In this document: positions 23,801 to 35,800 of the stretch, piece after piece
Layout: every line of letters begins with the position of its first letter
Position numbering within the stretch: position 1 is the first letter of the stretch
NCBI RefSeq assembly: GCF_964194025.1
Contig: NC_134468.1
Coordinates: forward strand, 37,138,001-37,202,000
Direction: 5' to 3'
DNA from: Convolutriloba macropyga
Lineage: Eukaryota
DNA: 64,000 nucleotides
Position numbers: made by a program

Positions 23801-26800
23801 TGGTTCTCAACCATTTGCAATTTCTCCGTGCAGACTCTGCAGCAACAGTGTCGAACTCTTCTTGTGTCAACTGCTGTTCTATGAGTTCGTTACACATGCG
23901 ATCAAGCTCCGCTTTTTGCTGTCGAAGTTCGTCAACGAGCTCTTGGAGGTCTGTTGCTGCTTCTGTTTGTTGCATTTGTTCGTCGAGTAGGTCTTGTGCT
24001 GCTTCCCACTCAATGACTTTGAACTTCAAAAGTTGCATGAGTTGAGCCTTGGAGGTTGACTTTGTTTTGGTTTTGCTTGACATGGTTCTGGATTTTTTCA
24101 TTGGTTAATGGTTACTTTGTTTATGGTTGCACGATGACATTCACAAAAAACAATTATTGCACTATGAGTGTTATGAGTCACTGCACTTTTAGTTAGCACT
24201 TAAAATGTTGTTTGAACGCTTATTAATTGTTTTTTTTGTATCTAAAAATAACTTGAATGCTATTTATACTGCTGTTGTGGACAGCTATTAATGGTTTCGT
24301 TGTCTTATGTTTTACCAAATCTTGCTTGAATGCTGTTTTTTTATTAAATTATATTATGCACGCTTCGCGCTCGAGGAGGGTTTTGTCTGATCACGGTCGC
24401 AAAGAAACACCCTAACCTGGGGAGGATACTGTTTTACCTTTTAGAAAGTTTTGTGCCTAGAAACAAAAACTTTTGCACTTGCGTGTCAGCAAGTGCAAAA
24501 CTGTAAATCAGAATCAGCTAGAGTATCTGTTTGAATGTGAGAAGGGCTTAATCAAACCCTGAAATTTTAAAAGCTCTTTCGTTAGACTTAGGGTCAGAGA
24601 GTTTTAGCTGAACTAGAACGTGCTATAATCTAAGAAAGATCAGGCTTTGCTACCTATGTATATGTTCGACTATCCCCGTCGTCAGCCTATGCGTTGGTTC
24701 AAAAGGGAACCCACAGCCTCACCCGCTCAGGCCCCAGTCAATCTTATTAGCAAATGTGGGACCTCTAGCCGCATGGACTAGAGAACTGCATTGAGCGGAT
24801 TGCATCATAATGTTCGGAGTGCAATGAACGATGCAGGGGGAAGGTCATCGAACTGTAACTTACTTAGAAAGCCTGACAGCCTAGAAATTTGAAGTGCTAA
24901 AATATCAGATGGAAAAAATCTATAGCACGTTTAATTCAGCTAGGTGGTGGGATTTTTTAAGGTGTTAGTGAAAAACTACAAGTCAGAAATTTTAAGTTGT
25001 CTCTGTATTGTGAGTCGATGGTTCGGTTTTAAAACCTAGGATGCGCCAAAAATTGTTATCTCTTCTTTAGTCTGATCCGCTTTCAGAGACAACGACTGGT
25101 TTCCAAGAGTTTATTTTGCTGTATGTTATTCTATAAGCTTGTATGCTTGTTAAATAATAGCTTACAAAGGTGTGGTTTATACCCGCATTTACTATCAAAG
25201 TTAAGTGTGGCACGATGAAACTCATGTATGATAATGAGTAAAAAGGTTTGGCATTGAAAGTCATGAAAAATCAAAGTTAAAGATATGACTTTTACAGCGA
25301 TTATGAATATGAACTCAACAAATTTGAACTAAATAACAAGGGGAAGGATTGGGGGGCTAAACGGTTACGGACCGTTTACACTTGACCTCATTTTCAAAAT
25401 TCGGCTTGCTTGCCTATCGGCTTGCTTGACCACCACCAAATAGGTCACATCAATGATATCCCTACCTTTGAAAGCATAGTTTTTCTTCTTAGTAAATGAC
25501 ATTGATTATTGAATACTATTTGGCTGAATTGTATTTGGTTATAGTTTGAGAGCTGCAATTTTTTAAACTTTTCATGTGGCTGGGGTAGGATTGAATCTGA
25601 ATTGATTTTGATTACATGCTGTTTATGTTTACTCGTAGGAAATGGCCAAATTGGCTAAAGAGAGGTACATGAGTGAGTTAGCTGCAGCTAAGAGAGAACA
25701 CAACCGCATAATGGAAGAGAGGAGGAAGCAGAAGTACGAGAAACACTACAAGGTCTGCCACAAGATAACCCTCGACATTGTAGACTACGCATGCAAGTTT
25801 GGAGAGTACAGAGAACTCACTGGAGGGTACGTTTGAAAAATTGATATTATTTGTTATTTTTTATCTTTGGTTTCATATAACTCGAGTAGAAAGATTGTTC
25901 GTTTTATTTACTTCTTGCATAGCCGTTGATGATAACCAATTTTCTTGCTCTCTCTTTAATATTTTTGAATTCGAATCCAATCCTTATCATACTTGTAGCA
26001 TTACAGCAACAAAATCAAGCCAGACGAATTCACAGTTAAATCGTTTGTTACCGGATAATCAAATTACAGCTGTTGTAGCAATTTTTCCTGCCTATGTATT
26101 CTAAAATTAAGGATAGTTTTTATTTTTTTTGTTCTGTTTAGGTTGGTTCCACACAAACTGTTCCGAGAGTGGACTGCCATGTTCTTAAGTGAAGTCGCCA
26201 TCTATCCTGACATCCAGGTAATCATCTCCGTCCATAGACACCTCAGTTTATTTCTAAATGTTGAATTTAGATCTGATGACTTTAACTAAGAGTGTTAATC
26301 GAGTAAGGTGATATCCTATCTTGCAAGATTAATTTCTTTTCCTCTGAGAGCTAACTTAGTGAGAATTATGCTAATGAAGTTTCGGTCCTCAGATGTGATT
26401 TGATGCCCCTCATGTTGACCACTTCATCTTAAAAGAATTTTCACACGTCATAAATGTTTTAAATTTTTCAACCGACCTCACTTTCTGATATTTTTCAGGA
26501 CAAGAATAAGGTAATATTTCTTGTAAATTTAAAACTAACGCTTCACCTACAAAAAATGCTGTTTGGACATAATTTTGCCTTTTTCATTTATGTACTCTTC
26601 AACTAACAAAATACTTGACTGAAAAATTGACTCATTCGTAAAAAATTTTTTTGGAGAATGTGATTTTGTCACTCACTTGCCGGGACTATCTGTTCAGCTT
26701 GATGCTTTGAATAATCCTTACTTGTGTTCTGGCAACTAATATTGGAACTAGAACATTTGTTTCCAGGAAGAGACTGTCGAAGATTGGCTAGAGAAAGAGC

Positions 26801-32800: not shown

Positions 32801-35800
32801 GTGCTTATACTGTGAAATTTTAAAATTGCAACAACGGCTTGAACGTCAATTCTATGTCGAATTTCTGGTCAGTAAAATTCAAAAAGCCAGCTGGTTTCAA
32901 CGAATATAGATCCTCAGATCGGTGGCTTTCCTCAGGTTTAATGACTGAATTTAGTCAATATGTTTAGAAGAAAAAACTAAACATATTGACTAAATATGTT
33001 TTTGCTTCTAATAGGTAATTTTGTCTTTTTTTTTAAAAAAATTGTCAATTAAAAGAAAGTCGCTTCCCTAAACGGGTGGTCCAAGTCAACTCCTGTGTGT
33101 ATACAAGTACCCATCAAAAGCGAACTTGAGCTAAACAAACAACGGAGTAATGAAAACGTACGTCTCTAAGACGTAATTTTGTTAACAGCATTGCTTTGTA
33201 GAAAGACCCTCTGTTGGACCAGATAGTGGGTCCATCTGGTGATGATCCACAGCAGGGTAGTCAGGAGATACCCCAATTGCCACAAGAGGCTGGTGGAGGA
33301 AACCTCACTGTTCAGGTAACATCTCAATTTCCAGCTTTACCCTTTATTAGGCTTCTTCTCCATTGTACTTATCTCAACAAATTATGTGATAAAACTAACC
33401 TTAATTTATTAGGAGCAGTATCCTGAATTCAGGATATACTCAAATCATGTTAAAACTGCATTTTAAATACAAGAAAATTTGACTTGTTTCAGCTACGAGC
33501 ATTAAAATTTGATCACAATTTACCCCCCTTTACAATTTTCTTTTTTTTTCCATCTCGAGTCCTTTTGAGTTTCCCTTGCGGGTCATTTAATTTAAGTTTA
33601 AATAGGTCTCAAACTGTGTTCAGGTAGGTGCTGGTGGCGACGGTACAAGCACCCTCATAAGCTGGGAGGCTAGAAAACCCCACCTATCCAGACGGGCCCA
33701 GTGTGGCAAAAGGATATTTGATGAACTGTGCAAGGGAAGAAATGTGCCAGATGAAGTCATCGCAGAGCTGGTTGTAGACGCAGTCAGGTTTGTTGGCGAT
33801 TTTCGTCCACTGGCGACTAGTGCGTGGTTTTTTGTGAACTCTTATCTTTTCCATGCGTTTATACCAATTTTGGATCTTACAAATGATATTGGTGAAGTGT
33901 GACTGTGTTTGCCAAATGATAAACTCAATATTCAACAACTAAATCATGGTAAGGAATATAACATGTTTAGGAATCATCAGTAATTCAAATTGATTTCTCA
34001 AAATTTTCAGTTCTGATTGTTTTACAATAAAGTGTTATAGACTAAAGTACCGCCACAATAATTTCGATAATAACCTCTTGATCTTCAAAAATAGCAATGG
34101 CCTGGAACCGCAAATAGTTGATAGAAAAACAATTTCATTCTTTTTAAGAGAGTTGAATTCTAATAGCGTGAGGGTGAGGTTTAAGTCGCTAGATTATCTC
34201 CTCTCTCTTAAACGAAGTTTTTATCATCTGAATTCTCCTATTAAGAATTAGCCAACTAATTCAATTCCTCCTTCAAAAAACAGATCGCGTTATTGGAAAG
34301 TAAGCTTCCTTGTGATGGGTGCTATTGAAAGATGTTTAGCAAGCTCCAGATGCTAGGGATCACGTCTCATAATTTTCCCAATCTTTTTGCTCGGTTTGTT
34401 AAACGAAGTTTTAGTTTGAAGAGTTTTCCCGATCTCTTGGAGCAGGAAGTTGTAGAGGGACTTCTTAAGCCTGGTTTTGATCCCGATTTTCTGTTTTGTT
34501 CTCAATTTATCTAACGCTATTATTTGATTTACTTTTTTTCCTAATCTTTTTTGATGATCTTTTTTATTCGCTGTCATTTGTATGCCGACAAATGTTTCCT
34601 AGCAATGATCTAGCCGACCAGTGATCTAGCCAATGTTTCCAAGCTTTCGATTGGGGACGCTTTCATCAAGATAAAATCTATCGCGTGGATCAATTATGCT
34701 GGATGAAAGTAAACATGTTTTTAATAAATGATTAGACAATATTTTCTTGTTTTCCAGAGAAATAGCGTTAGCAAATTACTATGCTTATTTGCTTTAGGAG
34801 AACATTTTTTTCATTTTAACTGAAACTGTATTAACCGTCCACTCTCCCATTCATAGTTCACATTGGTCACCAGAAAGTTCATAACTTTTCCTTAGATTCC
34901 GAAAAGTGTTTTAATTGTTCCGACCCCTCTTGAGGGGGGAGGAACTATGTACTCAAATGGGTTTTTTTGTTCAGTCAATTTTGGCCGATCGATATATTAA
35001 TCGAAGAGAGTTAAGACTAGTATCATTAGAAAGCTTGTCCAGCGTAGAATATGGAATTAAAAAGATTTTTTTGATTTTCGTTTTTGACAGGGAGATATCG
35101 AGGTTTAAACTTTCGAGAGAGTGAATTCCGTTGATTTCATTAACCTTTTTTCGGAACTTTTAACTAAAATTTCGCCAATTTTGATAAAATAAAAAAAAAT
35201 TGTTCAAGAAAATATTGTTGATTTTACGTTTAAAGACAAAATATATTGTCGGCTATTTTCATTGAGTTTTTTGTCACAAATTCCGGCTAAATATTTCACA
35301 AAATTCAGACTTTTTCATCAAAAACAGCAGGAAATAAATTTCTTTAGTCCACTCTGATTAAATTTGTTGGAAGTGCACACCCAAACACCACTAACACAAT
35401 CTTTGTAGACTGAAAAGGGGGCTAATTCTTTTTCAACTTCCGTTGAAAAATTTTGCCGTTTTTTGCTAACTTCATTCGTTGATTATCAAAAACGCAGCCT
35501 TTACTTTTGATTTTTTAACAAACAAAATATCCATATCAATGACATTCCAAAAATTAAACATTTCTAATAGGCAATCAACACTAGCAGTACTATTTCTGTG
35601 CCAATCTTGGACCGTTACAATCCAAAAAGAATTCGGATTGTCATCAGTCGGTTTTTTATAAAAAAAATTCGATTTATATTTTTTATATTAATTGAATAAC
35701 AGAACATTCCAAATCAAAACTCACTAGTGATAGGTCCTATTGGCTATCTAATTAGCTTGAAATTAATTTATCTAGTTGATTGCTTGAAAGCTTATGGTAG

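What the first reader, a model, noticed from the sequence alone, without database searches (positions are those of the whole stretch)
26061..35566. In-frame internal tandem duplication of a phase-symmetric SPEF2 exon block containing the adenylate-kinase-like P-loop
Seen: a 4.75-kb unit repeats head to tail. It carries 6 exons plus a microexon totalling 813 nt (271 codons). The block starts and ends at phase-2 introns, so splicing 29033 to 30896 keeps the frame (AG+G = Arg, then LVPHKLF). All splice sites survive in both copies. I saw about 5 differences, including non-homopolymer substitutions (27208 G vs 31962 C, synonymous; aaaagag vs aagagag near 29393/34147). Inference: either a very recent duplication giving a longer SPEF2 with two P-loops (or mutually exclusive blocks) in a central-pair axonemal protein, or two alleles assembled in tandem.
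Basis: partly seen in the sequence, partly recalled or inferred. Interest (0 to 1): 0.65.

Follow-up and report, generated by a model that had tools for sequence, protein, structure and literature searches.

The report
Near-identical tandem duplication inside SPEF2
A 4.75-kb piece of an invertebrate sperm-flagellum gene (SPEF2) is present twice, head to tail and in frame, but the sequence alone cannot show whether this is a very young real duplication or an assembly error.

Summary
Window 26061-30813 and 30814-35566 are head-to-tail copies, 99.87% identical, with 6 differences and no N at the join.

- **Gene:** a SPEF2/CPC1 orthologue on the + strand, from 6401 to beyond 50866. It is far from any vertebrate SPEF2, so I do not take the contig for human.
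- **Content of the unit:** six clear exons totalling 801 nt.
- **Frame:** the unit lies between two phase-2 introns, so splicing 29033 to 30896 keeps the frame (AG+G = Arg). All 12 splice sites are intact.
- **Domains:** the block starts in the last ~18 positions of the D5 domain and ends in mid adenylate-kinase fold, just before the GW..D.FP strand. A read-through protein would repeat a half-domain, not carry two kinase domains.
- **Differences:** 4 of 6 sit in homopolymer runs. One is exonic and synonymous.
- **Real or artefact:** reads are needed. The gap-free join with 1 nt of microhomology leans towards a real, recent, probably polymorphic duplication (about 0.5). False assembly duplication is about 0.4.

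Interest is modest.

The parts
26061..30813 (+). Copy 1 of the tandem unit (4753 nt)
   Evidence: 99.87% identical to copy 2; left boundary sharp at 26060|26061
30814..35566 (+). Copy 2 of the tandem unit (4753 nt; one T more at 30876 and one T fewer at 35266)
   Evidence: right boundary sharp at 35566|35567
30806..30823 (.). The only novel junction (30813|30814), CATTTCTA|AAATTACAGC; 1-nt microhomology, no N, no repeat at the breakpoints
25639..25826 (+). Unduplicated upstream exon (SPEF2_D5 profile 53-114); ends GG|gt, so the following intron is phase 2
   Evidence: 63.3 bits
26142..26217 (+). Exon a, copy 1: tail of the D5 domain (..LVPHKLFREW..), 76 nt, enters in phase 2
   Evidence: SPEF2_D5 profile 117-132, E = 0.1, weak; tblastn to oyster and P0003
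26767..26841 (+). Exon b, copy 1: 75 nt, linker
   Evidence: 56% to oyster residues 492-516
27167..27383 (+). Exon c, copy 1: 217 nt, Walker-A P-loop GKAFSGKST; holds the one exonic difference (27208 G)
   Evidence: PDB SPEF2 E = 8.4e-7, CPC1 3.4e-4; 89 hits
27864..28018 (+). Exon d, copy 1: 155 nt, helix after the P-loop and start of a variable insert
   Evidence: weak tblastn to P0003 residues 569-612, E = 0.009
28448..28561 (+). Exon e, copy 1: 114 nt, open frame with AG/GT but no support from homologues (variable region); provisional
28870..29033 (+). Exon f, copy 1: 164 nt, NMP-binding helix region (..NVPDEVIAELVVDAVR); ends AG|gt, phase 2
   Evidence: (adenylate kinases, E = 0.33-0.56, weak)
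30896..30971 (+). Exon a, copy 2 (identical)
31521..31595 (+). Exon b, copy 2 (identical)
31921..32137 (+). Exon c, copy 2 (1 synonymous difference, 31962 C)
32618..32772 (+). Exon d, copy 2 (identical)
33202..33315 (+). Exon e, copy 2 (identical)
33624..33787 (+). Exon f, copy 2 (identical)
43191..43314 (+). Unduplicated downstream exon: G + QIPEGQGWVLDDFP.., core strand of the adenylate-kinase fold (ADK profile 74-102)
   Evidence: E = 0.0034, below Pfam's cut-off

Best explanation
A real and very young intragenic tandem duplication in the SPEF2/CPC1 orthologue of an unidentified non-vertebrate animal. It is probably still polymorphic and possibly heterozygous in the sequenced animal.

How it arose (inferred): a non-homologous join with 1 nt of microhomology linked a point 1780 nt into the intron after exon f to a point 81 nt before exon a. 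This duplicated 4753 bp.

What it would do (inferred):
- Both broken introns are phase 2 (shown).
- All 12 splice sites are intact, and 82 nt of native intron with its pyrimidine tract remain in front of the second exon a (shown).
- Ordinary exon-by-exon splicing should therefore include both blocks and give a protein 267 residues longer.
- That protein would repeat the D5 tail, the linker, the P-loop and the NMP-binding half of the adenylate-kinase-like domain.
- One of the two half-domains would be left without the rest of its fold, acting as a long insertion between D5 and the kinase-like domain of the C1b-arm scaffold.
For: - Gap-free contig sequence across a single sharp junction. No N, no repeat and no homology at the breakpoints beyond 1 nt.
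- In the passages of Ko et al. [quoted passage not shown] A true allele-specific tandem duplication sat gap-free within one contig.
- The copies are not byte-identical. There are two clean substitutions (27208 G/C, 29394 A/G) plus four differences in homopolymer context, so the two copies were called from data separately.
- A second, perfect 189-nt tandem duplication lies at 4201-4566. This assembly therefore resolves short exact tandem copies.
- Gene identity and phases rest.
- By my own knowledge, overlap-based assemblers need at least one read across every contig position. This is inference and was not tested.
Against: - There are no reads, no depth and no second assembly, so the junction has no independent support.
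- Differences of 0.13% are also what two alleles of a low-diversity genome would show.
- 4 of 6 differences lie in or at homopolymer runs of 6 nt or more, which make up only 157 of 4753 nt. That looks like consensus noise and weakens the 'separately evolved copies' argument.
- An N run lies 3.4 kb downstream (38939-39147), so this scaffold was joined or masked nearby.
- The block cuts through two domains. The product would be structurally awkward in a protein whose loss removes a whole axonemal arm in Chlamydomonas (PMC9113940, passages).
- 27 of the 28 SPEF2-like hits of 1300 aa or more showed a single match to the P-loop exon.
- No protein of this species that could show the architecture was found.
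Confidence: 0.5

Rival explanations
1. False duplication made by the assembler. Either the two alleles of a single-copy segment were laid in tandem (heterotype), or one haplotype was under-collapsed because of read errors (homotype). In both cases the gene has one block and the junction does not exist in the animal.
For: - The copies are 99.87% identical, and the differences are mostly homopolymer-length changes.
- The scaffold has an N run 3.4 kb away.
- Ko et al. 2022 (PMC9516828, passages) report false exon and gene gains as widespread, with 7-24% of false duplications lying on the same scaffold.
- The would-be protein splits two domains.
- 27 of 28 long SPEF2-like hits have one P-loop match.
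Against: - There is no gap at the junction, and the flanks of the nearby N run share nothing. The same paper describes gaps or depth gaps between false copies as their usual mark.
- Two clean substitutions more than 2 kb apart would not hold a 4.75-kb bubble open in a k-mer graph (inference).
- A contig-internal false junction needs a chimeric read or a gap-closing error (inference).
Confidence: 0.4
2. The duplication is real but silent at the protein level. The splicing machinery skips one whole block (25826 to 30896, or 29033 to 43191), so the normal SPEF2 is still made.
For: Both skipping routes are in frame, because all the introns involved are phase 2. The two blocks encode the same peptide, so either route gives the wild-type protein.
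Against: - Nothing in the sequence enforces exclusivity. There is no frame incompatibility, and all donors and acceptors are identical in strength between copies.
- Skipping six consecutive constitutive exons is not the default outcome of an intragenic duplication (my knowledge).
- No RNA data were available, and I did not search a joined model.
Confidence: 0.08
3. An older, fixed duplication kept nearly identical by gene conversion. On this reading, a SPEF2 with two P-loops is the normal protein of this lineage.
For: It is in frame with all splice sites intact. Tandem copies can be homogenised by conversion (my knowledge).
Against: - Identity is uniform over 4.75 kb, introns included, at 0.04-0.08% substitutions. 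The LTR pair of the neighbouring retrotransposon differs by 1.5%.
- A close relative's ORFs (P0001, P0090; ~91% identical in exon c) give no sign either way.
- 27 of 28 long homologues have one match.
Confidence: 0.04

Closest known systems
SPEF2 / CPC1 (central-apparatus C1b-arm scaffold with an adenylate-kinase-like domain)
   Same: - The same domain order as far as the window reaches: CH_2, then SPEF2_D5, then the P-loop/ADK-like region.
- Exon c matches PDB chains named Sperm flagellar protein 2 (9ijj_4M, E = 8.4e-7) and CPC1 (7n6g_6A, E = 3.4e-4).
- Named orthologues found include oyster K1P929, Nematostella, Patiria, Hydra, frog and horse.
   Different: Here the stretch from the D5 tail to mid-ADK is written twice. 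27 of 28 long homologues have it once. That library holds one representative per 50% cluster, so rare duplicated forms could be hidden.
Chicken K (late feathering) locus: 176,324-bp tandem duplication giving partial copies of PRLR and SPEF2 (Elferink et al. 2008, PMC2542384; abstract read)
   Same: A tandem duplication with a defined breakpoint junction that duplicates part of SPEF2. It segregates as a polymorphism and is typed by junction PCR.
   Different: It spans two genes and creates truncated extra gene copies. It is not an in-frame repeat of internal exons within one SPEF2 transcript. It is also about 37 times larger and in a vertebrate.
In-frame partial tandem duplications of internal exon blocks, e.g. 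KMT2A-PTD (search listing only) and dystrophin exon duplications (recalled)
   Same: Both breakpoints are intronic, a multi-exon block is repeated head to tail, and the frame is kept. The usual outcome is a longer protein with both blocks included.
   Different: Those are somatic or disease alleles with transcript proof. Here neither the DNA junction nor a transcript is verified.
False heterotype/homotype duplications in assemblies (Ko et al. 2022, PMC9516828; passages read)
   Same: Near-identical adjacent copies that create false exon gains within genes.
   Different: The usual marks named there are an assembly gap or read-depth gap between the copies, and half depth. The first is absent here. 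The others cannot be tested here.
Mutually exclusive exon clusters that arose by tandem exon duplication (recalled: Kondrashov & Koonin 2001; Letunic et al. 2002)
   Same: Tandem duplication of exons with preserved phase.
   Different: Those involve single diverged exons that give alternative protein segments. Here a six-exon block is repeated with identical coding sequence.

Membership tests
SPEF2 / CPC1 | N-terminal CH-like domain (Pfam CH_2, PF06294) | tested here: met
   exon pieces searched singly. 6638-6814 scores 30.2 bits (cut-off 27, profile 48-87). 6467-6625 scores 25.8 bits (profile 3-47, just below the cut-off); tblastn to oyster residues 1-98.
SPEF2 / CPC1 | CPC1/SPEF2 domain D5 (PF22946) | tested here: met
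   16756-16944 scores 65.8 bits (profile 1-51) and 25639-25824 scores 63.3 bits (profile 53-114); exon a matches profile 117-132, but only at E = 0.1.
SPEF2 / CPC1 | Adenylate-kinase-like P-loop domain after D5 | tested here: met
   exon c matches SPEF2 (9ijj) at E = 8.4e-7 and CPC1 (7n6g) at 3.4e-4; 89 hits; exon 43192-43314 matches ADK profile 74-102 at E = 0.0034, below Pfam's cut-off as a single exon. Whether it has enzyme activity was not tested.
SPEF2 / CPC1 | SPEF2 C-terminal domain (PF24082) and the rest of the ~1800-residue protein | not testable with these tools
   The window reaches only to about residue 925 of the oyster protein (50717-50866). The 3' half of the gene lies outside the window.
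In-frame intragenic tandem duplication | Two head-to-tail copies with one novel junction inside one gene | tested here: met
In-frame intragenic tandem duplication | Breakpoints in introns of equal phase, with all splice sites retained | tested here: met
   Both introns are phase 2, and 12 of 12 exon ends have AG/GT in both copies.
In-frame intragenic tandem duplication | The junction exists in the organism's DNA (reads, PCR) | not testable with these tools
In-frame intragenic tandem duplication | A transcript carrying the 29033-30896 splice | not tested
   No RNA data. The joined exon model was deliberately not built or searched. Exon-wise searches found no protein of this species.
False assembly duplication (Ko et al. 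2022) | An assembly gap between the two copies | tested here: not met
   no N in 26061-35566. The nearest N run is 38939-39147; its flanks share nothing.
False assembly duplication (Ko et al. 2022) | Half (haploid) or very low read depth, and discordant read pairs | not testable with these tools
   No reads.
False assembly duplication (Ko et al. 2022) | Differences that behave as heterozygous sites (haplotype-specific k-mers) | tested here: inconclusive
   six differences, four in homopolymer context and two clean substitutions. This fits alleles, consensus noise or young paralogues alike.
Mutually exclusive exon cluster | Diverged alternative exons and a feature that enforces exclusivity | tested here: not met
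   the coding sequences are identical but for 1 synonymous base. The block length is a multiple of 3, so double inclusion stays in frame. RNA pairing elements were not looked for.

The most novel reading that the evidence does not exclude
The duplication is real, homozygous or fixed, and spliced in full. This animal would then build its central-pair C1b arm on a SPEF2 scaffold with an extra 267-residue module holding a second Walker-A P-loop but only half a kinase fold. That would be a natural insertion experiment in a 16-nm-periodic axonemal 'rachis' protein. It could show how much extra mass the D5-kinase hinge tolerates, or whether an orphan P-loop half-domain can swap with its twin.
Probability: 0.1. 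Interest if true: 0.45.

Novelty: new member of a known kind. Interest (0 to 1): 0.25.

Why it matters
If real, this is one more young in-frame exon-block duplication, a well-known class of structural variant. It falls in a conserved axonemal scaffold gene whose loss abolishes the C1b arm in Chlamydomonas and causes immotile sperm and ciliary dyskinesia in mammals (PMC9113940, passages).

It would be a convenient natural allele for asking whether the D5-kinase region tolerates a large insertion.

If it is an artefact, it is a clean example of a gap-free false exon gain that would inflate an annotated SPEF2 by 267 residues. Annotators of this genome should know that.

Either way, the practical message is not to trust a gene model with two P-loops here until reads have been checked.

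Tried and rejected
- **Word-index protein search.** Exon c searched for longer proteins: 93 candidates, none at E <= 0.001. Its upper length limit was 2000 aa, so a duplicated full-length model of about 2070 aa would have been missed.
- **Exhaustive search with exon c.** It found no hit above 54% identity except the 119-aa ORF P0001 (92%). I therefore found no full-length protein of this species or genus. Closer proteins hidden inside 50% clusters cannot be excluded.
- **Single-exon Pfam searches of the six block exons.** Only weak matches (E >= 0.026). Exon f against solved structures gave only weak adenylate-kinase matches (E = 0.33-0.56).
- **Repeat or transposon at the breakpoints.** None found. 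The best shared words between the two breakpoint regions are 9-12 nt, at E >= 0.26. The BEL/Pao element ends 679 nt upstream and shows no link to the junction.
- **Overlap-type error at the N run.** No shared sequence across its flanks.
- **Structured RNA genes in the unit.** None. The only Rfam and tRNA hits are at 47.6-48.1 kb.
- **Junction-spanning ORF.** I considered looking one up in the protein collections as independent support. Only one 43-aa TTG-start ORF crosses the junction, too short and unlikely to be catalogued, so I dropped the idea.
- **Naming the organism.** Named homologues from oyster, sea anemone, sea star, snail, Hydra, frog, bird and horse are all about 42-51% identical over matched exons, so no phylum could be assigned.
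Not located. Without RNA evidence any AG-N12-GT candidate would be guesswork.
- **Not done.**
  - The N run was not filled.
The contigs behind P0001 and P0090 could therefore not be inspected.
  - The supplementary figures of PMC9516828 (S3, S4: what true and false duplications look like) were closed and may bear on the gap argument.
- I stopped that step.

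
Full report
**1. The observation**

Window 26061-30813 is repeated head to tail at 30814-35566.
- A self-comparison gives 4755 aligned columns at 99.874% identity, with 4 mismatches and 2 gap openings.
- Exact 300-nt seeds lie at spacings of 4753 and 4754.
- A global alignment with flanks shows that similarity stops abruptly at 26060|26061 and at 35566|35567.
- The single novel junction reads CATTTCTA|AAATTACAGC. Only one base (A) could belong to either parent.
- The two breakpoint regions share nothing beyond chance words of 9-12 nt at E >= 0.26.
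- There is no N in the repeat. The only N run of the window is 38939-39147, 3.4 kb downstream. Its flanks do not overlap each other. I did not try to fill it.

**2. The differences**

There are six:
- T8 vs T9 at 26123 / 30876.
- 27208 G vs 31962 C.
- 28280 and 28288 A vs T. Together these turn T8A9T into T9A7TT.
- 29394 A vs 34148 G.
- T7 vs T6 at 30513 / 35266.

Four of the six lie in or at homopolymer runs of 6 nt or more, which make up only 157 of the 4753 nt. By my arithmetic that enrichment has a chance probability of about 1e-5 to 1e-4. It fits consensus noise or slippage mutation equally well. Two differences are clean substitutions.

**3. What the sequence is**

I searched exon by exon. 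I did not build, search or fold a joined (spliced) protein.
- Exon c (27167-27383, Walker-A motif GKAFSGKST) matches PDB chains named 'Sperm flagellar protein 2' (9ijj_4M, residues 453-522, E = 8.4e-7) and 'CPC1' (7n6g_6A, E = 3.4e-4).
- Against 1.84 billion cluster representatives it gave 89 hits at E <= 0.001.
- The named hits are SPEF2 of oyster (K1P929), Nematostella, Patiria, Batillaria, Hydra, a frog, a bird and horse.
- Local tblastn with the oyster protein and P0003 places the gene on the + strand: start codon at 6401, then exons near 11548, 12320, 15174, 16084 and 16756, then 25639-25826, the duplicated block, 43191-43314, about 48553 and 50717-50866.
- This covers only about the first 925 of roughly 1800 residues, so the gene runs on beyond the mapped part.
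- Exon-level Pfam confirms CH_2 (6467-6625, 6638-6814) and SPEF2_D5 (16756-16944 for profile 1-51; 25639-25824 for profile 53-114). It gives a sub-threshold ADK match in exon 43192-43314 (profile 74-102, E = 0.0034).

Identity to every named homologue, vertebrates included, is about 42-51% over matched exons. I therefore do not take this contig for human or for any vertebrate. No phylum could be assigned. The only close relative is an unnamed 119-aa ORF (P0001, 92% in exon c) and its cluster mate P0090.

**4. Anatomy of the block**

From the sequence, copy 1 carries six exons with AG/GT borders:
- a: 26142-26217 (76 nt)
- b: 26767-26841 (75 nt)
- c: 27167-27383 (217 nt)
- d: 27864-28018 (155 nt)
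- e: 28448-28561 (114 nt)
- f: 28870-29033 (164 nt)

The total is 801 nt, or 267 codons.
- Exons a, b, c, d and f are supported by tblastn to homologues. Exon e lies in a variable region and rests on its open frame and splice signals only.
- In copy 2 all six exons recur at offset 4754. All 12 borders are intact and there is one difference, CTG vs CTC, both Leu.

The frame argument does not depend on the internal exons.
- The upstream exon ends ..ACT GGA GG|gt, and the downstream exon begins G|CAA ATC CCC. Both are fixed by homology..YRELT-x-x-LVP.. and ..R-x-IPE..GW...
- Both flanking introns are therefore phase 2, and the block length must be a multiple of three.
- Splicing 29033 to 30896 gives AGG (Arg), the same codon as the native 33787-43191 join, followed by LVPHKLF.
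- The hybrid intron (29034-30895, 1862 nt) keeps 1780 nt of donor-side intron. It also keeps 82 nt of acceptor-side intron with its T-rich tract.

**5. What the block means for the protein**

- In the oyster orthologue, D5 is residues 347-480 and the ADK match is 713-771. The block aligns to about 462-744.
- In the window itself, exon a holds D5 profile positions 117-132 (weak). ADK profile position 74 onwards lies in the unduplicated exon at 43191.
- The duplication therefore begins inside the last ~18 positions of D5. It ends between the NMP-binding helix and the GW..D.FP core strand of the kinase fold.
- A read-through product would carry two P-loops but only one complete kinase-like fold. 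One N-terminal half-domain and one extra D5 tail would be left over, forming a 267-residue insertion.
- CPC1 is described as the 'rachis' of the C1b arm, repeating every 16 nm, and its loss removes the arm (PMC9113940, passages read).
- Whether such an insertion is tolerated is open. This is inference.

**6. Real or artefact?**

This cannot be decided without reads.

For a real junction:
- It is a gap-free, sharp junction with microhomology, inside contig sequence.
- In the passages of Ko et al. 2022 that I read, false duplications were usually separated by an assembly gap or a read-depth gap and sat at haploid depth. A true allele-specific tandem duplication lay gap-free in one contig.
- The two copies differ at two clean sites, so they were not simply written twice.
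- The window also holds a perfect 189-nt tandem duplication at 4201-4566, so exact tandem copies are resolved in this assembly.

For an artefact:
- The divergence (0.13% overall, 0.04-0.08% counting substitutions only) is what alleles of a low-diversity genome, or consensus noise, would give.
- Most differences are homopolymer-type.
- A scaffold gap or mask lies nearby.
- The protein consequence is awkward.
- 27 of the 28 hits of 1300 aa or more match the P-loop exon only once. The exception, P0039, has 9 low-complexity stretches. It and the two-stretch 347-aa P0060 are unnamed, and I did not use them.

I put a real duplication at about 0.5, plus about 0.1 for real-but-skipped or fixed variants, and an artefact at about 0.4.

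**7. Age and status if real**

- Substitutions number 2-4 in 4753 nt.
- The two LTRs of the BEL/Pao element 679 nt upstream differ at 5 of 329 positions plus one indel.
- The duplication would therefore be some 18-36 times younger than that insertion (my arithmetic). It is most likely a segregating copy-number variant, possibly heterozygous in the sequenced animal.
- Phase symmetry is not a sign of selection. With the intron phases read here (2,0,0,1,0,0,2), two random introns agree about 43% of the time.

**8. Comparison with what is known**

- The gene is a SPEF2/CPC1 family member as far as the window allows: CH_2, D5 and the P-loop region are met, and the C-terminal domain lies outside the window.
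- The event belongs to the known class of in-frame intragenic (partial) tandem duplications.
- A full-text search for 'SPEF2' with 'tandem duplication' found 16 papers, of which 10 were listed. The relevant listed papers concern the chicken K locus.
- There, a 176-kb tandem duplication makes partial extra copies of PRLR and SPEF2 (PMC2542384, abstract read). That is a different architecture.
- I found no report of an internal in-frame exon-block duplication in SPEF2 in that search. This rests on that one search only.
- KMT2A-PTD was seen as a search listing only. The dystrophin duplications and the mutually-exclusive-exon literature are recalled.

**9. Verdict**

The biological reading is an ordinary kind of event in an interesting gene, and an assembly artefact remains a serious alternative. 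Interest 0.25.

Noticed in passing
window 17526-25382 (- strand): A BEL/Pao-type LTR retrotransposon sits in the SPEF2 intron just upstream of exon 25639-25826. Its LTRs (17526-17852 and 25054-25382) are 97.9% identical. It has gag (DUF1759) and pol with RVT_1, Peptidase_A17, rve and DUF5641. The pol reading frame is split into two overlapping ORFs, with the Peptidase_A17 profile divided 1-100 / 103-162, which indicates one frame break.
   Followed up: partly
window 4201-4566: A perfect tandem duplication: period 189 nt, 1.9 copies, 100% identity. It lies inside degraded non-LTR reverse-transcriptase debris (194-5083, - strand). The stretch at the join repeats a 14-nt motif that also occurs inside the unit, so it looks like a templated junction.
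   Followed up: partly
window 47604-47676 (-) and 48049-48132 (+): A tRNA-Val (anticodon AAC, 61.9 bits) lies inside a SPEF2 intron. A marginal tRNA-like match (29.6 bits, at the threshold) lies 370 nt away on the other strand.
   Followed up: no
window 38939-39147: A run of 209 N in the long intron between the second block and exon 43191. Degraded RT-like ORFs lie just before it (38211-38573, with no Pfam match). The flanks share no sequence. I left it unfilled.
   Followed up: partly
window 49571-50170: A stretch of about 600 nt that is 84.7% identical to its own reverse complement, that is, a long palindrome or foldback element. It lies about 550 nt upstream of the SPEF2 exon at 50717.
   Followed up: no
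window 36397-37180 and 52888-54774: Diverged tandem-like repeats in introns. The first region has units of about 360 nt at 83-85% identity. The second has units of about 480 nt at 73-81%.
   Followed up: no
window 59293-62464 (- strand): Fragments of another LTR-type retroelement, with RT_RNaseH and a gag-type aspartyl protease.
   Followed up: no
proteins P0001 and P0090 (unnamed ENA ORFs): Two ORFs from two different contigs (525 kb and 17 kb) carry exon c at about 91% identity, and the similarity runs on into the intron. They show that a close relative has been sequenced.
   Followed up: partly
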